From a virus, in the UHGV virus genome UHGV-0275551: a stretch of 64,000 nucleotides of DNA; one strand, 5' to 3'. A program made the translations under genes and the position numbers. Below the pieces are notes generated by a model. The model did not search any database, was not told where the DNA came from, and saw nothing but the letters and a program-made list of their open reading frames with translations. Shown here one piece after another: positions 9,424 to 25,077 of the stretch (its first letter is position 1; each line of letters opens with the position of its first letter).

Positions 9424-9455
9424 GAGCCTCCTTAATCGGGGGCTTTTTAATTTTT
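9424..9455 (+). terminator. rho-independent terminator ending the plus-strand block
   Basis: AGCCUCC-uuaauc-GGGGGCU (one G-U pair) followed by UUUUUAAUUUUU. Confidence 0.6.
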
Positions 9456-10104
9456 ATAAAATTTTATCGGTTGTCCCAACCTCTGGGTCACCATCATATG
9501 TGAATAAAATATCTATCCTTCTTAACAACCTCCTTAGTCTTACTCTCTATATAGTTATATAGTACTATATAGTATCTTAGTAACTATCTAGTGGTCTTAA
9601 TAGCCCCCCTGTATAAGCCTTCTAACTAGCCCTTTAATAAGCCCTCTAAACACTCTTCTAACAAGCCTTCTTAACAACCTATACAATCACCTTAACCATC
9701 TCTCTATACCCTCTTAGAAGCTCCTATACACCTCTTAATCTCTATGTCAGCTATGATACCCTCTATAGATGTTCACTAGGTACTACTAAGCCTCTATATA
9801 GACTGTTTTAACAAACTTAACAGGAATATCTTCACAGACCTTATCTCACAAGGTCTAACACGGTACTAACAAGGTATCTTATAAGCCTGTTTCTACCTGT
9901 ATTTTTAAAAGACTGTATAGGTAATTATTCAGAATTTTAAAATTTTTATAAAATAAGACTATCAAGTCATTTTTTAGGGTCTTTGAAGGAACTCAAAAAT
10001 ATCTGTAGAAGATGTATATCTGCTTGGTAGCCCTTAACAACTCCCTTACAAGTACTTTGCAAAATTTTAAAATATCCTTAACAATCTCTTAACAGTTCTC
10101 ACAA

Positions 10105-10176
10105 GCTCTTAACAACTCTTCAAAGCTCTTAACAACTCTTCAAAGCTCTTAACAACTCTTCAAAGCTCTTAACAGA
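10105..10176. repeat. perfect 20-bp tandem repeat (GCTCTTAACAACTCTTCAAA) x3 plus a partial fourth copy
   Basis: Read directly at 10105-10124, 10125-10144, 10145-10164. Confidence 0.9.
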
Positions 10177-11058
10177 TTCTTAACAGAACTAACAAGGATG
10201 TAACAGTTTCTTAACAGTTGATACATAGGCTTTACAGAATCTTAACAGATGACTAACAAGAGCTAACAAGTTAATTTTTAAGAGTTATTTTGTAGGGATA
10301 ATTAACAAGTTCCTAACAAGTGTTTAATCTTTTTAACAAGCTATTAACATGGTCACTATCTCTTTTCTTATCGTTCCCTTTCCCTCTTAGTGATTCTCTA
10401 AATAGCCCTCTTAAAAGCTCTCTATAGCTCCTTGTAAGCTCTTTTAAGTCTCTTCCTAGTAATTACACCCCAACTATACAGACACCTCTTTATAGGGCTT
10501 TACAGAGGCTTTAAAGGCTATGCTAAAGACTCTTACAAGGCTTTTACGTGGTCTTAACAGAGATTTAACAAGGGGCTAACAAGTCTCTAACAAGTGCCTT
10601 AAAAGCATAACTATGTAGGGATTGTTAAGAAATTGTTAAGAAAATGTTAAGGGGGCTAGCATTTACGTAACTTTATAGCCTCTTTTACGTAACTTTTGAG
10701 TAACTTTATAGCCCCTATAACATACTTTAAAGGAACTACCAAGCCCTTTTTAGTAGTTCACAAGAATACTAACGAGATGATAAAGCTTACACCCTTATAA
10801 GATTCTTCTAAGGCTCTGGGAAGCTCTATAAAGGGCTTTTTAGAGTGGGTTAATATGATTGCTTAAGTTAGGTTGATAAGGCTGTTATAGAGCGTTATAG
10901 AGCGTTTAAGGGGTTGCCCTTCCCTTTCGGGTTATGGGCTTATATTTAAGTTGATTTGATAAAAGGTTATAGAGTAGACTATAGAGTTATTGCTTTTAAG
11001 GTCTGATAAGATTCTGGAAAGGGAAGGGAAAGGGTTGTATAAGGATTTGATAGACGTA

Positions 11059-11105
11059 AAAAAGCCCCATTTAAGGGGCTGTAAAGGTATCTGGGGCTAT
11101 TTAGC
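11059..11105 (-). terminator. terminator hairpins ending the minus-strand small-gene cluster
   Basis: On minus strand AGCCCC-uuaaau-GGGGCU followed by UUUUUU; second hairpin GGGGC-tattta-GCCCC adjacent. Confidence 0.6.
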
Positions 11106-11118
11106 CCCGTTGCGTCGA

Positions 11119-11367
11119 TTAGTTGTAGCCTTGTTTGCTGTAGTATAGAGAGACAATCAAGTCACCCCAATAATGGTAGTGAGATTCCTCGTTTATGGCT
11201 TCTTTTACGGCATCTTTCCAGAAGTCATCAGTAGGGTTATAATCTGGTATCACCTGCTGAATCAGCATTTTGATAAGGTCAAAGGTGTTATCTGTTCCAC
11301 CGATATCGAATTTTGCATCAAGTTTGTGGCAGCCATAAGCATTAACAGTTACGCGGATAGTTGACAT
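11119..11367 (-). CDS. hypothetical protein
   Basis: 82-aa ORF immediately downstream of a type-A cassette. Confidence 0.55.
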   Translation of the reverse strand: MSTIRVTVNAYGCHKLDAKFDIGGTDNTFDLIKMLIQQVIPDYNPTDDFWKDAVKEAINEESHYHYWGDLIVSLYYSKQGYN

Positions 11368-11434
11368 AATTTAGATTCTCCAGTTTAGGACTTTGTTTAG
11401 TGGGAAGGTCATTCCCTCCCCGTTGATTAGTAAT
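11368..11434 (-). promoter_or_regulatory. type-A promoter/leader cassette
   Basis: TTGCAA-N17-TAAATT, leader hairpin (GGGGAGGGAATGACCTTCCCC family), SD, then ATG. Confidence 0.6.
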
Positions 11435-11698
11435 TTACTGCATATTGGCGTAGGTTGCAAGCCTTTTTTCGTTGTATTTTGTCAGAATTTCACAAGATAG
11501 AACATCGTACATTGTAACCGCTTTGCTTTTGTCGAGGTCAAAAAAGCCAAATGCTTTACCATCTTTGAATCCGACAACTTCGTAAGATTCTTTAATGATT
11601 TCACCATTGAACAAATCACTTTCGATACGGTGAAACAACGCTACGTCTTCTTTGTTAGTTGCAATCTGCAATAGTGTGGTTAATTCTACGTGTTCCAT
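11435..11698 (-). CDS. hypothetical protein
   Basis: Track ORF runs in-frame through the cassette; likely start is the ATG right after the conserved SD (MEHVELTT...). Confidence 0.55.
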   Translation of the reverse strand: MEHVELTTLLQIATNKEDVALFHRIESDLFNGEIIKESYEVVGFKDGKAFGFFDLDKSKAVTMYDVLSCEILTKYNEKRLATYANMQ

Positions 11699-11800
11699 TT
11701 TTGAATCTCCTAGTTTAAGGACTTTACTTAGTGGGAAGGTTAATCCCTCCCCGTTGATTGACAATTTACAGACTTTTGATTGTCTCGTCAATATCTTTTT
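11699..11800 (-). promoter_or_regulatory. type-A promoter/leader cassette
   Basis: TTGACG-N17-TAAATT; leader hairpin; SD TAGGAG. Confidence 0.6.
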
Positions 11801-12296
11801 CAATATCTTTTAAAGTTTTTTCTAAGTTCTTGATATTGAAGGATAAGCCTTCACCGAGAGTCTTAGAATAACCGCTAGGACGTAAATCATAAAGGCAAAT
11901 TTGTTCTACATTGGAGAGGTTGACCATTTCACCGCTTACATCATAAGCTATTGATACGGTGTTTTCAGGGGCTTTATAGAACTTGTTAAGATTCTTGATA
12001 GAACGTTCATAAGCCATTTTATAACCATTTAAAAGGTCTTTAACGTGGTTGCGAACGTTTTTACACTCATCTAAGTAAATACCTAAGAATAGCGGTAACA
12101 GTTCTGCTACAGCTTGCATAAAGTGAGATACTACAACAGTAGAAACATTACGACGATGTATATAATAAGCCCCGTTTTCTGATTTAGTGATAGTTGCAAA
12201 GTGTACACCGTTGCAACGAAATTCGAAGGTATCTTTAACGGGTTTAGTCATAACGTTAGATGAGCGAATGTAGTTGATAGCTTGAAACTTGTTCAT
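11766..12296 (-). CDS. hypothetical protein
   Basis: 176-aa ORF starting right after a type-A cassette. Confidence 0.6.
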   Translation of the reverse strand: MNKFQAINYIRSSNVMTKPVKDTFEFRCNGVHFATITKSENGAYYIHRRNVSTVVVSHFMQAVAELLPLFLGIYLDECKNVRNHVKDLLNGYKMAYERSIKNLNKFYKAPENTVSIAYDVSGEMVNLSNVEQICLYDLRPSGYSKTLGEGLSFNIKNLEKTLKDIEKDIDETIKSL

Positions 12297-12400
12297 TTTG
12301 AATCTCCTAGTTTAAGGACTTTACTTAGTGGGGAAGGTCATTCCCTCCCCGTTGATTAGTACTATACTTGTTTTGATTTGCCTTTGCAAGCAATTTTTAA
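12297..12400 (-). promoter_or_regulatory. type-A promoter/leader cassette
   Basis: TTGCAA-N17-TATAGT; leader hairpin; SD. Confidence 0.55.
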
Positions 12401-12516
12401 GTTTATCTATAAAGAATCTATTAAGTGAATCCCTTTTAGATAACCCCCTCGAACAAAGTTACCAATGTCAATGGGTATTGTCAACACTTTTTTAAAAGTT
12501 TTTTGTAAGTTATTGA

Positions 12517-12858
12517 TTAACTTATGAATATTTTTTCAGGCTTTACATAGCTGATACGCTGACTTTTTAGCAGGTCATCCCAGATTAAAGCGGCAATATG
12601 TGCATAACCGGATTCACGTAAAAGCTTCATTGTTTTACTTCTCGTTTCAAAACGGCTTGCGTAGTATTCACTGTTCAAGGTCGTTTTATTCCCTTCGTTA
12701 TCTGTATGGATGATTTGCATCACTTGAAAGGGGCTTACACCCTCGCCTTTGTTCCACTGTTCAAAGTATTTTAGGCACTGCATAGGTGACATCTTATCAC
12801 TTACTTGAGTTGACCAAGATGAGCCAGCTTTATCGGTAATTACGGTTACATAAGCCAT
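12517..12858 (-). CDS. hypothetical protein
   Basis: 113-aa ORF after a type-B cassette. Confidence 0.6.
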   Translation of the reverse strand: MAYVTVITDKAGSSWSTQVSDKMSPMQCLKYFEQWNKGEGVSPFQVMQIIHTDNEGNKTTLNSEYYASRFETRSKTMKLLRESGYAHIAALIWDDLLKSQRISYVKPEKIFIS

Positions 12859-12943
12859 TTTAGAATCTCCAGTTTAGGATTTAGTGGTAAAGCTCTTTAT
12901 CTGGGGCTTACTATACAGACTAATAAGCCCCATGTAAAGTACT
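12859..12943 (-). promoter_or_regulatory. type-B promoter cassette
   Basis: TTTACA-N17-TATAGT with inverted repeat GGGGCTTA/TAAGCCCC flanking the -10; conserved leader; SD GGAG. Confidence 0.6.
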
Positions 12944-13192
12944 TTAAGCGTCTTTATATTCTATCTCTGTGCACTCACCTTTTACTAGCTCAAAGGTCCA
13001 AATAATTCGTTTATACTCAATCACTACTACAGTAACAAGGTCAGTCCTCTTCTCATTGGTTTTAAAGTCTATTGTGTGGGTATACTCATAACTAGTCTTA
13101 TCCTTAATTTCCCCGTAGCGTCTACACTCTTTATAGACTTCATCCATTAAGCCATTGCTAACCATGTTTTTTAGTTGAGTTTTAGTATACAT
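12944..13192 (-). CDS. hypothetical protein
   Basis: 82-aa ORF after a type-A cassette. Confidence 0.55.
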   Translation of the reverse strand: MYTKTQLKNMVSNGLMDEVYKECRRYGEIKDKTSYEYTHTIDFKTNEKRTDLVTVVVIEYKRIIWTFELVKGECTEIEYKDA

Positions 13193-13285
13193 TTTTTGGA
13201 ATCTCCTAGTTTAAGGACTTTACTTAGTGGGGAAGGTCATTCCCTCCCCGTTGATTGATAATTTACAGACTTTTATCAGGCTTGT
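13193..13285 (-). promoter_or_regulatory. type-A promoter/leader cassette
   Basis: TAGACA-N17-TAAATT; leader hairpin; SD. Confidence 0.55.
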
Positions 13286-13519
13286 CTAGTCTTTTTCAAT
13301 GATAATTTCATATTGACCATCGACACTGTCGAAATAGATTCCTTCGTCATCTTCTGTCTTAAAGTAACATTGTATATCATCACTGGCGGGGTAGTCTTGT
13401 CTTGCTATCTGGCAAACTTGAATAGCATTTTCTTTACTTCCTGTAAACTCTTCAAGCCCTTTAAAGTCACATGAATGGCCGTTACAAATGGAAAGGATGA
13501 GATAAATGGTTGTAAGCAT
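13286..13519 (-). CDS. hypothetical protein
   Basis: 77-aa ORF; preceded by hairpin CCCCT-gtaa-AGGGG plus U-run rather than a typed cassette. Confidence 0.5.
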   Translation of the reverse strand: MLTTIYLILSICNGHSCDFKGLEEFTGSKENAIQVCQIARQDYPASDDIQCYFKTEDDEGIYFDSVDGQYEIIIEKD

Positions 13520-13585
13520 GATTTAAGCCCTCTAAAAGCCCCTGTAAGGGGTTAATCAGTGTTTATAAGGTGAATGTATAGGTTT

Positions 13586-14128
13586 TTAGAAAAAGACCTT
13601 TAAATCACTCTCTACAATGTTTTCTGTCAGTGTATCCATGATGTCACAAAAAACCTGAATACTGTCGGATTGTTGGATACTTTTAGCAAGTAGCTCCAAT
13701 GTTTCATCAAGATAATTTAAATTTGGGTTATCCAGTGAAGGGAGACAAAAAGGTGAATACATAGCGTTGAACTCTGTTGTATAGACCTTTTTAATCCAAT
13801 TTACATCAAAGTACTCTGTAAAGCTTGCTATATTTGACACGTTATCACAAGAATAATCATCATTTAGCTCATCCTCTGGAATGTCAAGTTCTAAGATAAC
13901 AATATTTTGAGTTTTCATCTGAAAAGCTGCCGTGATAGTGGCATTTCCTAGAGCTTGCTGGATACCTTCCGATGCTATCTCTTCCTCATCATCACCATAG
14001 AGTTTATTTTCTGGGTACACGTAAAAATTGCCGTCCATATCCGAACAATTCCATACACCTGATGGTTTATCACCGTTATTAATCAGGTTGATAAAGTTTT
14101 CTTGAGTAGTACCGTGAAAGCATTTCAT
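13586..14128 (-). CDS. hypothetical protein
   Basis: 180-aa ORF after a type-B cassette. Confidence 0.6.
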   Translation of the reverse strand: MKCFHGTTQENFINLINNGDKPSGVWNCSDMDGNFYVYPENKLYGDDEEEIASEGIQQALGNATITAAFQMKTQNIVILELDIPEDELNDDYSCDNVSNIASFTEYFDVNWIKKVYTTEFNAMYSPFCLPSLDNPNLNYLDETLELLAKSIQQSDSIQVFCDIMDTLTENIVESDLKVFF

Positions 14129-14221
14129 TTTGAATCTCCTAGTTTAAGGATTTAGTGGTAAAGCTCTTTATCTGGGGCTTACTTTATCGAACTATAAGCC
14201 CCTTGTAAAGTACTTTATCAG
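14129..14221 (-). promoter_or_regulatory. type-B promoter cassette
   Basis: TTTACA-N17-TAAAGT; inverted repeat GGGGCTTA/TAAGCCCC; SD. Confidence 0.6.
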
Positions 14222-14419
14222 TTAATTTTTGACAACTTTTAAAACTGCAAGATAACCTAAGCAATAAGAATCACCGAAGAGAGTTCTACCCATGAAAGAA
14301 TCATCTTTGATATCCTTTGCAGTGACTGTTTTTTCTACGCCGTGGGAAAGAACTACATCACCAACTTTAATGTCTTTGATGTGCGTGGTTTCAATGGTTA
14401 AACCGTTGATAATAGCCAT
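14222..14419 (-). CDS. hypothetical protein
   Basis: 65-aa ORF after a type-A cassette. Confidence 0.5.
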   Translation of the reverse strand: MAIINGLTIETTHIKDIKVGDVVLSHGVEKTVTAKDIKDDSFMGRTLFGDSYCLGYLAVLKVVKN

Positions 14420-14520
14420 TTTGAATCTCCTAGTTTAAGGACTTTACTTAGTGGGGAAGGTCATTCCCTCCCCGTTGATGTGTAATTTAATCTATCTAAA
14501 AATCAGTGTCAATAAAATTT
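14420..14520 (-). promoter_or_regulatory. type-A promoter/leader cassette
   Basis: TTGACA-N17-TAAATT; leader hairpin; SD; about 95 nt near-identical to 15284-15372. Confidence 0.65.
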
Positions 14521-14925
14521 TTAGAGTTCTGCATAAATTGCGTCGCAGATGTCACGAAAGTCATGATTTGCCAAATTACGTTGTAACCAAGTGGCAAAGA
14601 AATCAGCGATTGCAAAATTAGCATCATACTCAACAGATAGCCACACTTTCACGGCAAATCTAAACATTTTCAAGTCTAACTCTTTATTCATTACCTTAGA
14701 TTTGCCTAACATGTCGACCATTTCATATTGTGCACCGTCTAGCGTGATACCTGCTGCAACGTCAGCCAATGAGTTTTTTACGTTTTCAACGTCTAAGATA
14801 ACGCTTTGAATCTTTCCGATAATGTTGTGCAATGTTTCATCCGGTGCTGATGATGTAATAACATTGATTCGATTAACGGTTAAACGTGCTTTTAAGATTG
14901 ACAACTCACGATTATTAATAGCCAT
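14521..14925 (-). CDS. hypothetical protein
   Basis: 134-aa ORF after a type-B cassette. Confidence 0.6.
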   Translation of the reverse strand: MAINNRELSILKARLTVNRINVITSSAPDETLHNIIGKIQSVILDVENVKNSLADVAAGITLDGAQYEMVDMLGKSKVMNKELDLKMFRFAVKVWLSVEYDANFAIADFFATWLQRNLANHDFRDICDAIYAEL

Positions 14926-15010
14926 TTTAGAATCTCCAATTTAGGATTGAGTGGTAAAGCTCTTTATCTGGGGCTTACTGTACAGACTTATAAGCCCCCT
15001 GTAAAGTACT
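14926..15010 (-). promoter_or_regulatory. type-B promoter cassette
   Basis: TTTACA-N17-TACAGT; inverted repeat; SD. Confidence 0.6.
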
Positions 15011-15283
15011 TTATACTAAGTGCAATTTTTTACCTTTTACTATAATGTAACTCGATGTGCTATTGCTGCAAACATCCTGATAAATTCTGCGCAAACGTCC
15101 TTCATAGTATACTTTCCAGCTAGTTGGAATCTTTTTGCCGTATCCGGTAGCAGTTTTTTGGAGTCCTGCGAATTGCCAATCTAAGATATGTTGCTCAGCC
15201 TGTAAATCCTCAAAGTGCATCACACCGTCTACATAGTGACGTAGAGTGACATTTAAAGTGAGACCGTTGTTAGTAGTATACAT
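15011..15283 (-). CDS. hypothetical protein
   Basis: 90-aa ORF after a type-A cassette. Confidence 0.55.
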   Translation of the reverse strand: MYTTNNGLTLNVTLRHYVDGVMHFEDLQAEQHILDWQFAGLQKTATGYGKKIPTSWKVYYEGRLRRIYQDVCSNSTSSYIIVKGKKLHLV

Positions 15284-15372
15284 TTTAGAATCTCCTAGTT
15301 TAAGGACTTTATTTAGTAGGGTGGTTATTGCCTCCCCGTTGATGTGTAATTTAATCTATCTAAAAACCAGTG
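15284..15372 (-). promoter_or_regulatory. type-A promoter/leader cassette
   Basis: TTGACA-N17-TAAATT; variant leader hairpin; SD. Confidence 0.65.
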
Positions 15373-15705
15373 TCAACAGTTTTGTTTTCGTTTGCTCAAC
15401 TCTTGAACAATTACAGTATGATAGTCTTTTAAGTCACTAATATTTAAAGCATTTATCAGAGAATTATAATCATCGACTAATTGAAAATCATCTTTGAAAA
15501 TGTCGCTGATTTGATAAGCTCTCGCCCTGAATCTGAAGCTCATTTCTAACCGCTTTAATTGTTCATCGCTCAACCGCTCTAGAAAGCTCATTACAAGGCT
15601 ATTGCTAACCTGTTGTGTGATTGCCTTATTTGCTAGATTATAGGCTTTATATGCCTTATAGAGCGCGAAAATGGCAATGATTGCAGTGATACCAGTCATT
15701 AACAT
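15373..15705 (-). CDS. hypothetical membrane-anchored protein
   Basis: 110-aa ORF, hydrophobic N-terminus, SD AGGAAG; overlaps upstream gene. Confidence 0.55.
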   Translation of the reverse strand: MLMTGITAIIAIFALYKAYKAYNLANKAITQQVSNSLVMSFLERLSDEQLKRLEMSFRFRARAYQISDIFKDDFQLVDDYNSLINALNISDLKDYHTVIVQELSKRKQNC

Positions 15706-15995
15706 GGTGCTTCCTCTTTACGTGACACTTTGCCATTTACAGTTATCTCATAAGAATCTAGTAAATCGCTTTTAGATTTGACAGGACTTTTAAGAGTATC
15801 ATCATAGATATTGACTTGCAATACAGGTTTTTTATACTCCCTGCAACTATTCCATAAGCAAATCACTACACGACGACCTTTTATTTTGCCGTGTAACCAT
15901 TCCATAACATCATGGCTATTTCTTGATGTTTCAATGAAATCAATTTTGTTGAGTAATTTGCTTAGATTTTCACGAACTTTATTTGATAATTTCAT
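15699..15995 (-). CDS. hypothetical protein
   Basis: 98-aa ORF after a type-B cassette. Confidence 0.55.
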   Translation of the reverse strand: MKLSNKVRENLSKLLNKIDFIETSRNSHDVMEWLHGKIKGRRVVICLWNSCREYKKPVLQVNIYDDTLKSPVKSKSDLLDSYEITVNGKVSRKEEAPC

Positions 15996-16083
15996 TTTTG
16001 AATCTCCAGTTTAGGATTGAGTGGTAAAGCTCTTTATCTGGGGCTTAAGATACCAACTTTTAAGCCCCTTGTAAAGTACTTTA
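15996..16083 (-). promoter_or_regulatory. type-B promoter cassette
   Basis: TTTACA-N17-TATCTT; inverted repeat; SD. Confidence 0.55.
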
Positions 16084-16373
16084 TCAGTTAATTTTCAGCT
16101 TTGCATAACCTCTCATTGTACGAATTGGAGATGTTAAGGCTACGCGTCTAATATATGCCTTTTTTGTGTATACATTTGTCTTTCCGATAGTGTTTACACA
16201 TGTAAAAAGATTTATTGGTGAATTTTTTAACTTCAACTGTTTATCAGCCTTCACACCCCATCTTACAGCAGATTGTTTTCCGTTGTCAACCACTTTCCCG
16301 CCTAACTTTTCGCTATGATGCGAGCGTCATCACGAGTTTTTACAGGAATTACAACGTTTTTGATAGTAGCCAT
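16084..16373 (-). pseudogene. small ORF interrupted by an apparent -1 frameshift in a 4-nt homopolymer (possible sequencing error or pseudogene)
   Basis: ATG at 16373 after the cassette SD opens a 23-codon frame ending at TAG 16302-16304; the 69-aa track ORF 16084-16293 is open in the -1 frame back to 16326; one extra A in the run at 16307-16310 would fuse them. Confidence 0.4.
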
Positions 16374-16461
16374 TTTTGAATCTCCAATTTAGGATTTAGT
16401 GGTAAAGCTCTTTATCTGGGGCTTACTTTATCGAACTATAAGCCCCTTGTAAAGTACTTTA
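16374..16461 (-). promoter_or_regulatory. type-B promoter cassette
   Basis: Identical in its core to the 14129-14221 copy. Confidence 0.6.
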
Positions 16462-16842
16462 TCAGTTAATTTTGAAGATTGTTACATAACCATCACTACC
16501 GATGATTTGAGACACTCCAGCTTTTTCTACTTGATAGCCCATATTTTCAAGATGATAAACAGCATCATCGTAACCATATGCGCCACCCTGATAACGTCTC
16601 TTATCGCATCTTATCAGGTTTTTACCACGTCCAGCAAGTGCATGTAAAATGGCTTTTTCGCTTGAAAGAGTACCATCTAGCATTGTCGCCGTGTAATGGT
16701 TGATTTTATTCCCATTGATATCATACTTAAAATTAAACGAGTGAACAACAATAACGTTACCTTTAAAATTCTCATCAAGTGACTTCTCCAGTGCGTTGCG
16801 AAAGTTGTCTTTGTTGATGAATTTAGGTGCACGGTATGCCAT
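16462..16842 (-). CDS. hypothetical protein
   Basis: 126-aa ORF after a type-A cassette. Confidence 0.6.
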   Translation of the reverse strand: MAYRAPKFINKDNFRNALEKSLDENFKGNVIVVHSFNFKYDINGNKINHYTATMLDGTLSSEKAILHALAGRGKNLIRCDKRRYQGGAYGYDDAVYHLENMGYQVEKAGVSQIIGSDGYVTIFKIN

Positions 16843-16960
16843 TTTGAATCTCCAGTTTAGGACTTTATTTAGTGGGGAAGGTCATTACCTCCCCGTTGAT
16901 GCAAATACTAGATAACCCCGTTCAAAGAGTCAAGAAAAATTTTAAAAATATTTTTGGAAA
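16843..16960 (-). promoter_or_regulatory. type-A promoter/leader cassette (first of the cluster)
   Basis: TTGACT-N17-TAGTAT; leader hairpin; SD. Confidence 0.55.
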
Positions 16961-17049
16961 AACTGTAATGAAACGTGCGCACACGACTACCACAAAACAG
17001 AACACAAATCAAGAATTATTTTTCAACCCGCTACAAATTTTTCTCTTGA

Positions 17050-17085
17050 CTTTTGGGGAGAGGTGGAGTAAGAGGGGGAGAGGGG
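17050..17085. repeat. purine-rich GA tract
   Basis: GGGGAGAGGTGGAGTAAGAGGGGGAGAGGGGTTGG. Confidence 0.8.
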
Positions 17086-17104
17086 TTGGTCTGGCTCTCT
17101 ATAA

Positions 17105-17295
17105 AAACCTACCTGCACGATTCTAAAATGATTTTTCTTGCCCGACCTGAGCGGGGTCTGCACGTTTTGAAAATGAAAAAGCTCTTTGGAGATTACCTGC
17201 ACAGTTTGAAAATGAATTTTCTCTTTGGAGTTCAAAATTCTCTCTACAGATTTCTCTACAGAACTCTACCTGCACAATCCTGAAATGAAAAAGCC
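17105..17295. repeat. array of four ~25-bp direct repeats (CCTGCAC-N5-TTTGAAAATGA family) plus duplicated CTCTTTGGAG
   Basis: Copies at about 17109, 17157, 17193 and 17267; lies upstream of the small-gene cluster on the minus strand. Confidence 0.7.
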
Positions 17296-17340
17296 CTCCT
17301 TACCTGAAAAATTTACCAGATAAGGAAGGCTTAGTCTATT
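17283..17340 (-). terminator. rho-independent terminator after the macro-domain gene
   Basis: Minus-strand imperfect hairpin GCCTTCCTTATCTGG / CAGGTAAGGAGGGC followed by CTTTTTCATTTC. Confidence 0.55.
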
Positions 17341-22631: not shown

Positions 22632-22675
22632 CTTATTACTCTCTCTTGTTAGTTAATCAATCAATTTGTGAGGCT

Positions 22676-22705
22676 ATTCTAAGGGGCTTCAAAGCCCCTT
22701 GTCAA
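22676..22705 (-). promoter_or_regulatory. near-consensus sigma70-type promoter with a GC hairpin as spacer
   Basis: Minus strand TTGACA-N18-TAGAAT; spacer AGGGGCTTTGAAGCCCC is a perfect inverted repeat. Confidence 0.5.
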
Positions 22706-22710
22706 ACACT

Positions 22711-25077
22711 TTAATCGTAAATTGTTGTACCTTCTGGAACACATTTCACATTAAAGCCTAAAAACTTACTCACTTCGATAGGTGATACTTTATTCCAATC
22801 TAAGTGTGAAAGCAAGAAGTTTTCTTGTTTTCTTTTTGAAAGATAGTTTGTCAGCTTGATAACCATGCGGTCACCTGCTTTTTTAATCTTTTTGTACAGT
22901 TTTGTGTCATTATCAAGGCATGACTTCAAATCCTGAAGAACACTGATAGTGTAAGTGTATGCAAACGGTGCAGCCACATACTGAATCTTACCGAACATTG
23001 CCTCAACAGCATCTTCATTCCCTTCTAAGAAGATTGTCTTAATAGTATCCCTTGAATAACAATACCCGCGAGAAATCTTCCTGTTATTGAACGTAAAGTT
23101 TCTGGCAATAATCCAACTGCTTGTAAGGTCGAGGACACCATCCATGTAGATGCGTGTCATATACCTGTTATGGTTAATCCAATGAACATCAGTTAAGCTG
23201 TCGTTCAAGAGCTTCTCATCTACTTCAATCCAGTCTTCTGGTATCTTTTTCCAATTTGCTTTTCGGAAAACATAGACTGTCTTGCCTGTAACATTAGCAA
23301 CTGACTTAGCTACATCCTCTGGAGATGAGCAAAAACATCTACCATCAACTGTGTCACCTACTGCCTTAATATAAAGCTGAGGTTCTTCAATTGTGTCTAA
23401 GTCTTCTGACACCTCTTTGTATGAAGCTTTAGTTTCTGCTGGAACAGCTTTCCAGAGTTTTACAACACCCCTTACAGCTTCTTTACGCTGATAGTGGTGT
23501 TCCTTATCAGACATCTTCACAATCTTTAACAAGCTTTTATCAAGTTTGTGTAGATTGATTAAATCATCTAACTCTTTTTCAGTCGAGAATACAAACACAA
23601 TGCCATTGTATCTGTGGAACAGGCCTGACTCGTTAGCGTAGTCTCGACATGCACCACGCAAAATTTGATTGCGTCCTACAGTCTTCTCAGTACCGTTTTT
23701 ATTGCGACGGTCATTAATCACGAACAAAAACTGTTCAATTTGGCTTTTACGCATTGCACCAAAGATATTGAACATGCTTGCCTCTTGAGTGTAGGAAAGT
23801 GCTGTTGCACGAATCTTACTCTCTAAAGAGTTGAACTTGACATAAGCAACTGGGTCATAAAGATAATCTACTTTAGGGATATTGTTCCCGTTCCTATCAA
23901 CCTTAATATTGCCTTTACCGTCACGTTCATAAATGACTGAGCCGTCTTCTGCGTAGATAATTCCACGACGAATGTTTAACAATTCTTCTTCCAGAGAATC
24001 AAGCTTAATGCCTCCCCACTCTAGCTTTGGACACACAGCATTAAACATCTCTCGTGAGTTCAAACGTAGCTCTGCATAAGCCTGTGCAGCATCCATGAGT
24101 GTAGGTTGGCTATTAACTTTCTTGATAACATCCTTTGTAATTGCTTCAGTTATCTTTTTGGTAGCCTCGATGATAACATTTTTTGTCGTATCATTCATCT
24201 GCAATGCTTCACGAGAAGCTGCTATAGCAACTGAACCAATAGGCATGTAGATGTTTACAAGGTCTACGCTCCTACGGAAAAACTCTGGCAAGACTTTGAA
24301 GAAATCATCACCAAGTAATGCTTCCATGTTCACTGGATAGGCAATATTACCCATCACCACATTAAACTCTGTCCTGTTACCACTAGAACGCCAGCTTTGC
24401 TTATGAATCATGGCATCGTAAACACCTTCTTCACGGGCAATGACGTTCATATCTGCTAATACATCGTCGTACTCAATATTACTTTCTGGTTTTACAGTGA
24501 AGTATGAGTACACATTTCCAGCTTCTTCAAAGAACTTTGAGATACGGTGGTCAGCAACTGCCACACGTACAGCTAAACCATTAGGTTCTTTTGTTGGGTT
24601 AGTGGTCAGTTTAGTTACTTGAGGGATACCATTCTCAAGATAAACAGAGTACTTATTAACAACACCATCAACATAGCTAGATACTGTGAATGACTGAGCA
24701 ATTGCAAATGGGGATTTTGAGCCGACACCCATTGCACCAATGTAGTCATTAGAGTCATTCTTCGTAGAAGCCCCGTAGTTTAGGTACAAACTCATAACTT
24801 TATCATGAGTCAATCCAGTTCCAAAATCACGAACTTCAAAGTAAGGCTCAAAACGAGTAGGTAAATGCACATGGAACGGGATGTTCTCTTTTCCAGCTTC
24901 TTTCTGAGCATCTACTGCGTTACATGACAGTTCACGAATCACTGCCCTTTCTTTAAAGGTATATACACCAGAACTCAAAAGGCTGAACATCTCAGGTGTC
25001 ATTGTAATCTGTGCTTGAGACGTCTCTAAAGAAGTTGAACTCTTAATCACTTCTGCGTGGTCATTTACCATGCGCAT
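22711..25077 (-). CDS. rIIA: rIIA-like protein with N-terminal GHKL (Hsp90-like Bergerat-fold) ATPase domain
   Basis: N-box IRELSCNAVDA, G1 box RDFGTGLT, G2 box IGAMGVGSKS; 788 aa; followed by rIIB-like gene. Confidence 0.5.
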   Translation of the reverse strand: MRMVNDHAEVIKSSTSLETSQAQITMTPEMFSLLSSGVYTFKERAVIRELSCNAVDAQKEAGKENIPFHVHLPTRFEPYFEVRDFGTGLTHDKVMSLYLNYGASTKNDSNDYIGAMGVGSKSPFAIAQSFTVSSYVDGVVNKYSVYLENGIPQVTKLTTNPTKEPNGLAVRVAVADHRISKFFEEAGNVYSYFTVKPESNIEYDDVLADMNVIAREEGVYDAMIHKQSWRSSGNRTEFNVVMGNIAYPVNMEALLGDDFFKVLPEFFRRSVDLVNIYMPIGSVAIAASREALQMNDTTKNVIIEATKKITEAITKDVIKKVNSQPTLMDAAQAYAELRLNSREMFNAVCPKLEWGGIKLDSLEEELLNIRRGIIYAEDGSVIYERDGKGNIKVDRNGNNIPKVDYLYDPVAYVKFNSLESKIRATALSYTQEASMFNIFGAMRKSQIEQFLFVINDRRNKNGTEKTVGRNQILRGACRDYANESGLFHRYNGIVFVFSTEKELDDLINLHKLDKSLLKIVKMSDKEHHYQRKEAVRGVVKLWKAVPAETKASYKEVSEDLDTIEEPQLYIKAVGDTVDGRCFCSSPEDVAKSVANVTGKTVYVFRKANWKKIPEDWIEVDEKLLNDSLTDVHWINHNRYMTRIYMDGVLDLTSSWIIARNFTFNNRKISRGYCYSRDTIKTIFLEGNEDAVEAMFGKIQYVAAPFAYTYTISVLQDLKSCLDNDTKLYKKIKKAGDRMVIKLTNYLSKRKQENFLLSHLDWNKVSPIEVSKFLGFNVKCVPEGTTIYD

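What the first reader, a model, noticed from the sequence alone, without database searches (positions are those of the whole stretch)
11119..16960. About 13 small genes each behind its own promoter cassette of two distinct classes
Nearly every small minus-strand ORF is preceded by a 65-100 bp conserved element. Type A (7 copies) is a TTGACA-N17-TAAATT-like promoter followed by a conserved leader that would fold into an RNA hairpin just before the Shine-Dalgarno sequence. Type B (5 copies) is TTTACA-N17-TAnnnT with an 8-bp inverted repeat GGGGCTTA/TAAGCCCC bracketing the -10 hexamer; the loop varies between copies while the arms stay constant, as expected for an operator or DNA structure. The layout resembles mobile promoter-stem-loop cassettes that shuffle accessory genes in other large phages and marks this as a likely early host-takeover or anti-defence region.
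Basis: seen in the sequence. Interest (0 to 1): 0.8.

Follow-up and report, generated by a model that had tools for sequence, protein, structure and literature searches.

The report
Promoter–hairpin gene cassettes in Felix O1-like phage
A Felix O1-like phage carries a row of 14 small genes of unknown function, 12 of them behind one of two repeated promoter-plus-RNA-hairpin-plus-ribosome-site modules, and related phages gain, lose and swap these genes at the modules, much as described for PeSL cassettes in T4-like phages.

Summary
The window is a wV8/SP22-like Felixounavirus. Between two intrinsic terminators (17332-17291 and 11080-11063, minus strand) lie 14 small minus-strand ORFs, one of them frameshifted. 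Twelve are preceded by a repeated cassette: 7 of type A and 5 of type B. None occurs elsewhere in the 64 kb, and shuffles give 0 matches.

Both types read as sigma70-type promoters fused to an RNA hairpin and a shared leader and Shine-Dalgarno module.
- Type A: a -35-like hexamer, N17, TAnnnT. The hexamers are kept even where the upstream sequence is non-homologous coding DNA.
- Type B: TTTACA, N17-18, TAnnnT, invariant in 117 copies from four genera.

The type B inverted repeat is the top of a roughly 20-bp two-helix hairpin that also contains the -35. It shows compensatory changes and wobble pairs that work only on the sense strand. That points to RNA, not a DNA operator.

Across Ounavirinae the array holds 9 to 18 genes. 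21 of 22 synteny breakpoints fall inside cassettes, and cassette variants are shuffled within genomes.

This is the PeSL architecture, previously described only in T4-like phages. The repeats were listed in the Felix O1 genome paper but not interpreted. No transcript data exist. One array gene is predicted to have an ADP-ribosyltransferase fold.

The parts
17291..17332 (-). Intrinsic terminator upstream of the array (17-bp stem plus T-run). It follows the phosphatase gene and equals Felix O1 terminator t13.
   Evidence: Felix O1 Table 2
16843..16945 (-). Type A cassette 1: A-tract, TTGACT-N17-TAGTAT, CAAC, hairpin GGGGAGGT/ACCTTCCCC, leader, GGAG, ATG at 16842
16462..16842 (-). g1, 126 aa, PHROG 4495, unknown function
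16373..16461 (-). Type B cassette 1: TTTACA-N17-TAAAGT inside a two-helix hairpin (-24.2 kcal/mol, z -3.9), then leader and SD
16084..16372 (-). g2, frameshifted copy of wV8 gp15 (A5 to A4 run, in-frame TAG after codon 23)
15996..16083 (-). Type B cassette 2: TTTACA-N17-TATCTT with TGn; hairpin -23.7 kcal/mol
15699..15995 (-). g3, 98 aa, PHROG 4401
15373..15705 (-). g4, 110 aa, PHROG 4375. Its start overlaps the g3 stop and it has no cassette. It always travels with g3 in relatives.
15284..15386 (-). Type A cassette 2: TTGACA-N17-TAAATT; weakened hairpin GGGGAGG/CCACCCT (-10.7 kcal/mol)
15011..15283 (-). g5, 90 aa, PHROG 3436
14926..15010 (-). Type B cassette 3: TTTACA-N17-TACAGT
14521..14925 (-). 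g6, 134 aa, PHROG 4327
14420..14526 (-). Type A cassette 3: TTGACA-N17-TAAATT; hairpin GGGGAGGG/CCTTCCCC
14222..14419 (-). g7, 65 aa, PHROG 3623
14129..14221 (-). Type B cassette 4: TTTACA-N17-TAAAGT; hairpin -26.2 kcal/mol, z -4.0; long SD-module variant
13586..14128 (-). g8, 180 aa, PHROG 3303. Predicted ADP-ribosyltransferase fold; H5, Y36 and D91 are invariant.
13534..13551 (-). Small hairpin CCCCT-TAC-AGGGG plus CTTTT between g8 and g9. wV8 annotates it as a terminator. There is no cassette here.
13286..13519 (-). g9, 77 aa, PHROG 4640. It always follows g8 in relatives.
13193..13301 (-). Type A cassette 4: TAGACA-N17-TAAATT. The -35 overlaps the g9 stop codon.
12944..13192 (-). g10, 82 aa, PHROG 23636. 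Among the genomes compared it is present only in the window and wV8.
12859..12943 (-). Type B cassette 5: TTTACA-N17-TATAGT; hairpin -27.4 kcal/mol, z -4.1
12517..12858 (-). g11, 113 aa, PHROG 4318. It sits behind a type B cassette here and in SUSP1 and Maleficent, but behind a type A cassette in Felix O1, VpaE1 and UAB_Phi87.
12297..12401 (-). Type A cassette 5: TTGCAA-N17-TATAGT
11766..12296 (-). g12, 176 aa, PHROG 4725. Its last codons encode the TTGACG -35 and spacer of the next cassette.
11699..11805 (-). Type A cassette 6: TTGACG-N17-TAAATT. The -10 contains the g12 stop codon.
11435..11698 (-). g13, 87 aa (ATG at 11698), PHROG 7022. Absent from Felix O1, VpaE1 and UAB_Phi87.
11368..11473 (-). 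Type A cassette 7: TTGCAA-N17-TAAATT, with -35 and spacer inside the g13 coding sequence
11119..11367 (-). g14, 82 aa, PHROG 4559, last gene of the array
11063..11118 (-). End of the array: a degenerate cassette remnant (CAACGGGGCTAAATAGCCCCAGATA..TTTACA) followed by the intrinsic terminator AGCCCCTTAAATGGGGCT plus T6. This equals Felix O1 terminator t23.

Best explanation
The region is a hyperplastic accessory-gene array of a Felix O1-like phage. It is built from self-contained expression cassettes of the PeSL kind. Each cassette runs as follows: stop codons of the upstream gene in an A/T-rich stretch; a host sigma70-type promoter; a G-run/C-run hairpin that acts in RNA; an unstructured A-rich leader; GGAG; about 8 nt; ATG.

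Type A. The promoter is a TTGACA-like hexamer, N17, then TAAATT. Its -35 and spacer are often encoded in the last codons of the upstream gene. Transcription is inferred to start at the conserved CAAC, 3-5 nt before an 8-bp hairpin. The mRNA would therefore begin with a 5'-terminal stem-loop, which is inferred to protect it from 5'-end-dependent decay.

Type B. The promoter is TTTACA-N17/18-TAnnnT. Its -35 resembles the T4 early GTTTAC. The whole promoter lies inside a roughly 20-bp bipartite hairpin. Transcripts started at this promoter are inferred to begin at the AGAUAAAG just after the upper stem, so they lack the hairpin. Only read-through RNA from upstream folds it. The hairpin is therefore inferred to mark the 3' end of the upstream message, as an attenuator, a 3' stabiliser or a processing site, and to insulate neighbouring cassettes.

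Recombination. The roughly 60-100 bp of near-identical sequence repeated 12 times gives homology for recombination. Recombination deletes, inserts and swaps units of leader + ORF + next promoter, and it homogenises cassette variants within a genome.

Shown: the repeats, their conservation pattern, the RNA-type covariation of type B, the flanking terminators, and the cassette-bounded synteny breaks. Inferred: promoter activity, transcription start sites, what the hairpins do, and early timing.
For: Repeats:
- They are real and confined to this array.

Type A promoter:
- 60 distinct upstream sequences all carry a -35-like hexamer (TTGACA 19, TTGCAA 14, TTGACT 9, TAGACA 5, TTGATT 5, TTGACG 5) exactly 17 nt before a TAnnnT hexamer.
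- At least six of the spacers are non-homologous, and some are coding sequence of the upstream gene.
- An A-tract precedes the -35.

Type B promoter:
- TTTACA is present in 117 of 117 copies, and TAnnnT follows at 17 or 18 nt in all 53 sequence variants, from four genera.
- The invariant C17, A18 (of the -35) and T, A (of the -10) are unpaired in the RNA model. The hairpin therefore does not explain their conservation.
- TGn is present in 23 of 40 unique promoters.
- The T4 early -35 is GTTTAC (PMC1524935).

Consensus scan:
- It picks up 11 of the 12 cassette promoters.

Type B hairpin:
- RNAalifold predicts both helices independently.
- 95.4% of cells are paired, against 32-56% when partners are slid. 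0 of 500 shuffles reach the observed pairing or covariation.
- G-C changes to U-A at two pairs, and one pair is A-U, U-A or U.G. U.G wobbles occur in 28 and 49 of 55 sequences and pair only on the sense strand.
- MFE is -21 to -27 kcal/mol, z down to -4.1.

Type A hairpin:
- It folds in nearly all variants, about -12 to -16 kcal/mol, 3-4 nt after the AAC.

Boundaries:
- Intrinsic terminators bracket the array, so it needs its own promoters.

Comparative genomics:
- Both elements occur about 4-5 times per genome in 240-290 Ounavirinae records.
- The array holds 9, 12, 13, 14, 16 or 17 genes in my map (9 to 18 by record annotation). Gene order is conserved and whole units are present or absent.
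- 21 of 22 blastn segment ends lie in cassettes, which make up about 22% of the region. One is an A/B hybrid junction in the shared SD module.
- The same gene sits behind type A in some phages and type B in others. Type B loop variants differ between genomes for the same gene and repeat within a genome.

Published parallels:
- The PeSL definition and its experimental promoter and terminator tests in RB49/phi1 are in PMC2839356.
- Felix O1 RT-PCR: ORFs 16, 20, 21 and 22 peak at 5 min.
Against: - No transcript 5' or 3' ends are available for any Felix O1-like phage in the searched literature.
- The type B -10 hexamers are weak matches to TATAAT (TAAAGT, TATCTT, TAAGAT).
- Four of the six -35 bases of type B are paired in the RNA lower stem. 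Part of their invariance could come from RNA structure alone.
- The type A hairpin shows no covariation above controls. It is 94% paired, but shuffled and slid controls do as well, because the arms are a G-run and a C-run.
- Neither hairpin is followed by a U-tract, so termination is not predicted by the standard model (one search lists none of them).
- Gene-sized indels would be expected to end in intergenic DNA anyway, because breaks inside genes are selected against. The breakpoint statistic therefore overstates the case.
- The Felix O1 RT-PCR timing is mixed: ORFs 17, 19 and 23 peak at 25 min. The method was crude.
Confidence: 0.7

Rival explanations
1. Type B is not a promoter. It is only an intercistronic RNA element in polycistronic transcripts driven by type A promoters. 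The roughly 20-bp bipartite hairpin with a 3x3 internal loop would be an RNase III-type processing site, or a 3' stabiliser or attenuator, comparable to the intergenic hairpins of T7 early mRNA. Cleavage in the internal loop would release downstream mRNAs starting near AGAUAAAG.
For: - The RNA structure has real covariation and sense-strand-only wobbles.
- Its total length, about 20 bp with an internal loop, is in the size range of RNase III hairpin substrates (established knowledge, from memory).
- In the window, types A and B largely alternate (A B B, A B, A B, A B, A, A, A), as expected for two-gene units with an internal hairpin.
- The -35 bases TTTA are paired with the invariant TAAAG, which could explain their conservation.
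- The type B -10 hexamers are poor matches to TATAAT.
Against: - The unpaired C and A of TTTACA, and the loop T and A exactly 17-18 nt downstream, are invariant in all copies while neighbouring loop positions vary freely. The hairpin does not explain this.
- The spacing is kept at 17-18 nt even when hairpin length changes from 29 to 31 nt.
- Types A and B are interchangeable in front of the same gene.
- Runs of four consecutive type B cassettes occur in SUSP1 and Maleficent. In my searches the Erwinia phage M7 locus gave four type B copies and no clear type A cassette; the only type A model hit there was one marginal match at E 0.0077.
- The two roles are not exclusive. The same DNA can be a promoter and its read-through RNA a processing site.
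Confidence: 0.2
2. The type B inverted repeat works in DNA, either as an operator for a dimeric regulator or as a cruciform that switches the embedded promoter on or off.
For: - The repeat brackets the -10, so any protein bound there, or extrusion of a cruciform, would occlude the promoter (direct reading).
- The PeSL authors also speculated that a DNA-binding protein targets GGGG...CCCC.
Against: - Half of the copies carry a T.G at arm position 5, and 49 of 55 carry one in the lower stem. On the complementary strand these are A.C mismatches, so the element is not a symmetric DNA palindrome.
- The arms change between genera in a compensatory way (GGGGCTTA/TAAGCCCC, GGGGTTATC/GATAGCCCC, GGTGTTTA/TAAGCACC). 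They do not keep one recognition sequence.
- The pairing extends into a second helix 3 nt away. That fits RNA folding, not an operator.
Confidence: 0.06
3. The repeats are neutral leftovers of recent tandem gene duplication and have no regulatory role.
For: High similarity between copies, up to 100% between two type B copies.
Against: - The genes between the repeats are unrelated to each other: 13 different PHROGs, and the all-against-all blastp clustering put no two genes of the window array in one family.
- The elements are conserved across four genera, with position-specific constraint on promoter hexamers, paired bases and the SD, while other positions vary.
- They are always in one orientation, and their end is placed the same short distance upstream of a start codon (GGAG to ATG spacing 7-10 nt in all copies, 8 nt in 127 of 183).
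Confidence: 0.03

Closest known systems
PeSL (promoter-early stem-loop) cassettes of T4-type phages RB49/phi1, PST, nt-1 (Arbiol et al. 2010, PMC2839356; Comeau et al. 2014, PMC4122927)
   Same: - Intergenic composite elements in a hyperplastic region of small ORFans.
- The upstream stop codon lies in AT-rich DNA.
- A sigma70-like -35/-10 is present.
- A GGGG...CCCC stem-loop with G-T pairs lies between the boxes, overlaps the -10, or sits just downstream of it.
- SD and ATG follow.
- Indels and replacements between relatives end in the elements (compared).
   Different: - A different phage subfamily (Ounavirinae, not T4-like), and by eye no obvious sequence similarity to the published PeSL description (no sequence comparison was run).
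- Only two sharply defined classes, each conserved across genera.
- The type B stem-loop is a two-helix hairpin of about 20 bp that swallows the -35 as well.
- All cassettes share one leader/SD module.
- The type A -35 and spacer are often inside the upstream coding sequence.
- Promoter activity, terminator activity and mini-circles have not been tested here.
Direct repeats listed for Felix O1 (Whichard et al. 2010, PMC3185647) and the DR_1 to DR_9 repeat_region features of the wV8 GenBank record EU877232
   Same: They are the same sequences. The 57-bp repeat CTTTACATGGGGCTTA...GAGCTTTACCACT is type B. The 39-bp repeat TTGACACTGG...ACACATCAAC is the type A promoter part.
   Different: The paper lists them only as direct repeats and does not include them among its five predicted promoters. 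It states that promoters, read-through and temporal control are unknown. The wV8 record labels some of them as rho-independent terminators, on either strand.
T4 early promoters (UP / -35 GTTTAC / TGn / -10)
   Same: Type B has (C)TTTACA at -35, frequent TGn and TAnnnT. Type A has an upstream A-tract (compared).
   Different: The -10 hexamers are further from TATAAT. No Alt- or MotA-type factors are known in Felix O1.
RNase III processing hairpins between the early genes of phage T7 (from memory; not checked with the tools)
   Same: An intercistronic hairpin of about 20 bp with an internal loop, lying between small early genes. Cleavage would leave a 3' hairpin on the upstream message.
   Different: No cleavage data exist. 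The type B element also carries promoter hexamers, which T7 sites do not.
Host-takeover module of Bacillus phage SPO1, and 'morons' of lambdoid phages (from memory)
   Same: A cluster of small early genes, many with their own strong promoter and strong SD. Genes carry their own expression signals.
   Different: Those promoters are not embedded in a repeated recombinogenic cassette with a conserved hairpin. The hosts and phage lineages differ.

Membership tests
PeSL cassettes | Repeated intergenic motif concentrated in a variable region of small genes without known function | tested here: met
   12 cassettes in 5.8 kb and none elsewhere in the 64 kb. 13 proteins fall in PHROGs of unknown function, with no Pfam match reaching the curated cut-off. 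Array size varies from 9 to 18 genes.
PeSL cassettes | sigma70-like -35 and -10 with an AT-rich region upstream | tested here: met
   Sequence level only. The hexamers sit at 17-18 nt in every copy. 11 of 12 are found by the consensus scan. An A-tract lies upstream of type A.
PeSL cassettes | Stable stem-loop (often polyG...polyC, with G-T pairs) between the boxes, overlapping a box, or just downstream of the -10 | tested here: met
   Type B lies between the boxes and overlaps the -10 (and the -35). Type A lies downstream of the -10.
PeSL cassettes | Upstream stop codon at the 5' edge; SD and start codon at the 3' edge | tested here: met
   (GGAG to ATG spacing is 8 nt in 127 of 183 copies; TGATAA or TAATAA stop modules precede type B).
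PeSL cassettes | Insertions, deletions and replacements between related phages are bounded by the elements | tested here: met
   21 of 22 segment ends lie in cassettes. Unit presence/absence and A/B exchange are seen. Caveat: intergenic breakpoints are expected under selection anyway.
PeSL cassettes | Demonstrated promoter and terminator activity; mini-circle formation | not testable with these tools
   Needs reporter assays and inverse PCR as in PMC2839356.
PeSL cassettes | Occurrence in T4-like myoviruses (the scope in which the family was defined) | tested here: not met
   The window is a Felixounavirus. No paper in the library links PeSLs to Felix O1-like phages. I therefore describe the cassettes as working like PeSLs, not as homologues.
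Intrinsic (rho-independent) terminator | GC-rich hairpin directly followed by a U-tract | tested here: not met
   The scan finds such terminators only at 17332-17291 and 11080-11063 (flanking) and weak ones elsewhere. It finds none at the cassette hairpins. Type B is followed by AGAUAAAG and type A by ACUAAG.
RNase III processing site | About two helical turns of mostly paired RNA, often with an internal loop; cleavage by RNase III | tested here: inconclusive
   The structure has a compatible size: 9 + 5 + 6 bp with a 3x3 loop. Cleavage cannot be tested here.
DNA operator / protein-binding palindrome | Sequence symmetry kept on both strands, and a conserved recognition sequence | tested here: not met
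   Wobbles pair only on the sense strand, and the arms change in a compensatory way.
Rfam families | Match to a curated covariance model | tested here: not met
   Only one chance-level miRNA hit, E 0.17.

The most novel reading that the evidence does not exclude
The type B element is a dual-coded sequence. As DNA it is a sigma70 early promoter. As read-through RNA it is a roughly 20-bp processing hairpin. Cleavage in the internal loop (for example by RNase III) would produce the same 5' end, AGAUAAAG..., as initiation at the embedded promoter. Every gene would then yield one uniform monocistronic mRNA, whether it was transcribed from its own promoter or from any upstream one. The upstream message would be left with a protective 3' hairpin. 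The same RNA/DNA double constraint would explain why about 60 nt are almost invariant across four phage genera.
Probability: 0.15. Interest if true: 0.65.

Novelty: new member of a known kind. Interest (0 to 1): 0.45.

Why it matters
If confirmed, this shows that the PeSL strategy is not peculiar to T4-like phages. That strategy packages each accessory gene with its own promoter, RNA hairpin and ribosome site, in a repeated module that also serves as a recombination handle. A second, unrelated myovirus subfamily widely used for typing and biocontrol of Salmonella and E. coli would use it too.

It would answer a question left open in the Felix O1 genome paper: where the early promoters are, and how transcription passes the many hairpins.

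It would define the boundaries of a plug-in locus where Felix O1-like phages exchange host-interaction genes. One of those genes is predicted here to be an ADP-ribosyltransferase-fold enzyme.

It would also offer ready-made, compact expression cassettes for phage engineering.

Tried and rejected
1. MAFFT plus RNAalifold on 29 diverse type A leaders predicted no structure, because indels in the hairpin were misaligned. A covariance-model alignment then showed 94% pairing but no covariation above shuffled or slid controls. I therefore claim only a thermodynamic, conserved hairpin for type A, not proven structure.
2. Rfam: no family matched.
3. Literature search for transcript maps of Felix O1-like phages. 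One search was badly designed and returned irrelevant papers. A second found nothing relevant. The phiEa21-4 genome paper (PMC2663227) is not held. From memory it reports a conserved terminator dispersed in 24 copies. This could overlap with the type B-like or TTTACA-hairpin elements of Erwinia phages, but I could not check it.
4. Felix O1 RT-PCR classes do not separate type A from type B genes, so I found no evidence for two temporal classes.
5. The IMG/VR scan with a 15-mer returned mostly chance single hits. Only about 10 contigs were Ounavirinae.
8. The 'terminator' features that the wV8 record places on the opposite strand over the cassettes are rejected. No T-run follows the hairpins on either strand.

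Full report
IDENTITY OF THE WINDOW

Region 11000-17200 is 99% identical to Escherichia phages SP22 and wV8 (genus Felixounavirus, subfamily Ounavirinae) and matches 253 phage records. In the wV8 GenBank record the intergenic repeats of this region are already annotated. They appear as repeat_region features DR_1 to DR_9, and in places as 'Rho-independent terminator' on one strand or the other.

The Felix O1 genome paper lists a 57-bp repeat (type B) and a 39-bp repeat (the type A promoter part) among 'twelve direct repeats'. It does not interpret them and does not include them among its five predicted promoters. It states that promoters downstream of the many terminators, and temporal control, are unknown (PMC3185647).

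OBSERVATION CHECK

The minus strand between 16960 and 11119 carries 14 ORFs of 65-180 codons.

- They are absent from the rest of the 64-kb window.
- Pattern searches find 7 and 5 copies against 0 in 100 shuffles (repeat families; alignments).
- Two genes have no cassette. g4 overlaps the g3 stop codon. g9 follows a small hairpin with a T-run.
- One gene (g2, 16084-16372) has lost one A from an A5 run relative to wV8 gp15 and is frameshifted.

TYPE A ANATOMY

Reading 5' to 3' on the gene strand, a type A cassette contains:

- an A-tract;
- a -35-like hexamer;
- exactly 17 nt of spacer;
- a TAnnnT hexamer;
- 6 nt;
- CAAC;
- the hairpin GGGGAGGG-AAUGA-CCUUCCCC, which includes a G.U pair;
- the leader ACUAAGUAAAGUCCUUAAACUAGGAGAUUCAAA;
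- ATG.

The repeated, nearly identical part begins at the -10. The -35 and spacer differ between copies. In several cases they are the last codons of the upstream gene. For example, the g12 C-terminus encodes TTGACG and its spacer, and its TAA stop codon lies inside the TAAATT -10.

Across 100 copies from relatives (60 distinct upstream sequences):

- the hexamer 17 nt upstream is TTGACA (19), TTGCAA (14), TTGACT (9), TAGACA (5), TTGATT (5) or TTGACG (5);
- the -10 is TAAATT (36), TAAAGT (11), TAATAT (6), TAGTAT (5) or TATAGT (2).

A promoter-like hexamer kept at fixed spacing in at least six unrelated spacer sequences is hard to explain other than by promoter function.

With the usual 7-nt distance from the -10, transcription would start in CAAC, 3-5 nt before the hairpin. 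This is an inference. The hairpin folds at about -15 kcal/mol in most variants. Shorter or different stems replace it in Suspvirus-like phages (GGGGC...GCCCC, GGGA...UCCC).

Formal covariation is not demonstrable. A covariance-model alignment of 78 copies is 94% paired, but shuffled and slid controls do as well, because the arms are a G-run and a C-run. The G.U pair, present in 49 of 56 sequences, would be an A.C mismatch on the other strand.

TYPE B ANATOMY

The consensus is ATAAAGTAC-TTTACA-N-GGGGCTTA-loop-TAAGCCCC-AGATAAAGAGCTTTACC, followed by the leader and SD.

In 117 copies (53 variants) from Felixounavirus, Suspvirus, Mooglevirus and the Erwinia Kolesnikvirus:

- TTTACA is invariant;
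- a TAnnnT hexamer lies 17 nt downstream, or 18 nt in the four variants whose interval is one base longer;
- the three inner hexamer bases and the rest of the loop vary freely.

About half of the unique promoters also have TGn (23 of 40). The T4 early -35 is GTTTAC (PMC1524935). T4 early promoters are UP/-35/TGn/-10 promoters (PMC2988021).

RNAalifold on 55 distinct sequences predicts two helices:

- an upper stem, GGGGCUUA(N)/(N)UAAGCCCC;
- a lower stem, separated by a 3x3 internal loop, that pairs AAAGUAC-UUUA with UAAAG-AGCUUU.

The -35 therefore lies inside the lower stem, and the -10 lies in the loop and 3' arm.

Counting pairs on the alignment gives:

- 95.4% of 1086 cells paired, against 32-56% when partners are slid by 1-3 columns;
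- no shuffle in 500 reaches the observed pairing, double-change cells or covariation score;
- G-C replaced by U-A at pair 9/60 in 7 sequences, and at pair 22/47 in 4 sequences (all of the Erwinia-phage sequences in the alignment: GGUGUUUA/UAAGCACC);
- pair 29/41 is A-U, U-A or U.G;
- pair 24/45 is U.G in 28 sequences and C-G in 26;
- pair 10/59 is U.G in 49.

Every wobble works only on the sense strand. That argues for a sense-strand RNA hairpin (or single-stranded DNA). It argues against a double-stranded operator or a symmetric cruciform.

The window copies fold at -21.5 to -27.4 kcal/mol, z -1.8 to -4.1.

The bases that are invariant yet unpaired are exactly promoter positions: the CA of TTTACA and the TA that opens the -10. 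The element therefore seems to carry two superimposed constraints.

A transcript started 7 nt after the -10 would begin at the A of AGAUAAAG, at the foot of the upper stem. It would not contain the hairpin. Only RNA coming from upstream can fold it. This is an inference.

SHARED MODULE

Both types end in the same leader/SD module. It exists in two forms, CCUUAAACUAGGAG (70 copies) and CCUAAACUGGAG (111 copies). Mixed forms occur in 2 of 183 copies. Both forms occur behind both cassette types. The GGAG to ATG spacing is 8 nt in 127 of 183 copies. The coupled U/A indel keeps a 3-4 bp mini-hairpin that includes the SD. Linkage alone could explain this coupling.

BOUNDARIES

A strong intrinsic terminator (17332-17291) ends the upstream operon, which runs from rIIA to the phosphatase gene. 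Another (11080-11063) ends the array. These are Felix O1 terminators t13 and t23. The array must therefore be transcribed from promoters of its own. The consensus scan finds 11 of the 12 cassette promoters.

COMPARATIVE GENOMICS

Type B matches 1260 places in 286 phage records. Type A matches 1161 places in 241 records. All are Ounavirinae, apart from a few oddly labelled records. The array always lies between the phosphatase gene and a terminator followed by about 1.5 kb of non-coding DNA. The records annotate 9 genes in Felix O1, 12 in VpaE1, 13 in UAB_Phi87, 14 in wV8, 17 in SUSP1 and 18 in Maleficent. My own gene map recovered 16 and 17 for the last two, and 13 intact genes plus the g2 pseudogene in the window.

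Gene order is conserved, and whole units are present or absent.

- blastn of the window against four relatives gives 22 segment ends inside the array. 21 lie in a cassette, and one lies 17 nt upstream of one. Cassettes make up about 22% of the region.
- One junction aligns position 87 of a window type B cassette with position 86 of a VpaE1 type A cassette. This is a cross-over in the shared SD module. It accounts for the extra unit (g10 plus a type B cassette) in the window.
- The type A -35 and spacer travel with the upstream gene. The exchanged unit is therefore leader + SD + ORF + next promoter.
- The same gene sits behind type A in some phages and type B in others (families 4 and 9).
- For a given gene the type B loop variant differs between genomes, while identical variants recur at several positions within one genome. 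Arm variants are genus-wide (C, U or the U-A pair).
- This is the signature of ongoing exchange between cassettes.
- Caveat: selection alone would place gene-sized indel ends in intergenic DNA, and here the intergenic DNA is the cassette.

MECHANISM

I conclude that these are PeSL-like expression and recombination cassettes, with confidence 0.7.

- Shown: the repeats, their constraint pattern, the RNA-type covariation of type B, the flanking terminators, and the cassette-bounded rearrangements.
- Inferred: promoter activity, transcription start sites, and a 5'-terminal hairpin stabilising type A mRNAs. By established E. coli mRNA-decay knowledge (from memory), a stem-loop within about 4 nt of the 5' end protects against 5'-end-dependent decay.
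- Also inferred: the type B hairpin acts on read-through RNA as an attenuator, 3' stabiliser or processing site that insulates cassettes.

Main rival (0.2): type B is only an RNA processing or stability element, and type A promoters drive short operons. The two views are not exclusive.

The DNA-operator reading is disfavoured (0.06).

COMPARISON WITH KNOWN SYSTEMS

PeSLs of RB49/phi1 are defined as follows:

- an AT-rich region holding the upstream stop codon;
- sigma70 -35 and -10 boxes;
- a stem-loop, often GGGG...CCCC with G-T pairs, lying between the boxes, overlapping a box, or just downstream of the -10;
- SD and ATG.

They were shown to act as strong promoters and as terminators, to bound indels, and to form mini-circles.

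Every sequence-level feature is met here. The experimental features are untested, and the phage lineage differs. The PeSL papers, and all 22 papers mentioning PeSL together with phage and promoter, do not mention Felix O1-like phages. I file the array as a new member of that kind, by analogy and not by homology.

GENE CONTENT

All 13 intact proteins fall in PHROGs of unknown function. None has a Pfam match reaching the curated cut-off; the only hit is a sub-threshold DUF417 match for g4 (E 0.0037, 17.3 bits against a cut-off of 27).

g8 (13586-14128) belongs to a broad family.

- The family has 226 clusters at 50% identity and also occurs in Pseudomonas, Vibrio and Hafnia phages.
- H5 (in HGT), W26, Y36, D91 and S93 are invariant.
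- Its AF2 model has pLDDT 92.6.
- Weak sequence echoes of PARP and Tpt1 are also seen.

This gives partial support to the 'host-takeover or anti-defence' label.

In the Felix O1 RT-PCR, ORFs 16, 20, 21 and 22 peak at 5 min and ORFs 17, 19 and 23 at 25 min. There is no relation to cassette type.

VERDICT

The array is a new member of a known kind and of moderate interest (0.45). The repeats themselves were already on record. The functional reading, the RNA-level structure of type B and the cassette-bounded shuffling are, as far as the searchable literature shows, new.

Noticed in passing
[not shown]
   Followed up: yes
window 16084-16372 (-): The second gene of the array is frameshifted relative to wV8 gp15 by loss of one A in an A5 run. 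Either it is a pseudogene or this is a homopolymer sequencing error. Its type B cassette is intact.
   Followed up: yes
window 22670-22725 (-), between the 788-aa and 369-aa ORFs (rIIA and rIIB by synteny with Felix O1): A third promoter-hairpin element of the same style: TTGACA-AGGGGCTTTGAAGCCCCT-TAGAAT. A GGGGCT/AGCCCC hairpin fills the spacer between the -35 and -10. Felix O1 has the equivalent at L002:1651-1710.
   Followed up: partly
window 9450-11060: A 1.6-kb stretch downstream of the array has no annotated CDS in the Felix O1, VpaE1, SUSP1 or Maleficent records (UAB_Phi87 annotates three tiny ORFs of 25-49 codons there). It is packed with the motif YTGTTAR: 26 copies on the minus strand against 2 on the plus strand, and 93 in the whole window on both strands. 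It also holds a 20-bp tandem repeat (4.4 copies, 10086-10174) and CTATARAG motifs. It looks like an iteron or origin-like, or regulatory, region.
   Followed up: partly
window 17113-17290 (-): Four copies of CATTTY-N4-6-GTGCAG(GTA) lie in the roughly 350-nt non-coding gap between the upstream terminator and the first cassette. wV8 annotates a doubtful 54-codon ORF there ([D7, D8], 6, 71).
   Followed up: no
window 11085-11118 (-): After the last gene there is a degenerate hybrid cassette (CAACGGGGCTAAATAGCCCCAGATACC-TTTACA) fused to the real terminator. It looks like a cassette remnant without a downstream gene.
   Followed up: no
window 12402-12516 (-): An extra ~115-nt spacer lies between g11 and the cassette of g12 (the whole g11-g12 gap is 220 nt). 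It contains another TTGACA-N17-TAACTT promoter-like site. Maleficent has a 46-codon gene at this position, so this may be the remnant of a lost unit.
   Followed up: no
L007 (Erwinia phage M7) 10018-10053: The hairpin AGGGGC-TTTACA-GCCCCT followed by TTTT encloses the -35 hexamer in its loop, with TATACT 18 nt downstream. This is a terminator-plus-promoter composite in the Erwinia relatives. It may be related to the dispersed conserved terminator that, as I recall, was reported for phiEa21-4 (paper not available).
   Followed up: partly
all cassettes, e.g. window 14132-14146 (-): The SD module occurs in two forms with a coupled U/A indel: CCUUAAACUAGGAG and CCUAAACUGGAG, 181 of 183 copies coupled. 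Both forms keep a 3-4 bp mini-hairpin that includes the SD.
   Followed up: partly
GenBank GU169904 (Staphylococcus phage SA1) 134498-135025: A record labelled as a Staphylococcus phage contains a Felix O1-like copy of g12 (88% amino-acid identity) and cassette matches. It is probably a chimeric or contaminated assembly.
   Followed up: no
window 11766-12296 (-): Homologues of g12 carry a precomputed Pfam PF26821 that is absent from the local Pfam copy. The AF2 model is an N-terminal beta domain plus a long helical hairpin, and the fold search was uninformative.
   Followed up: partly
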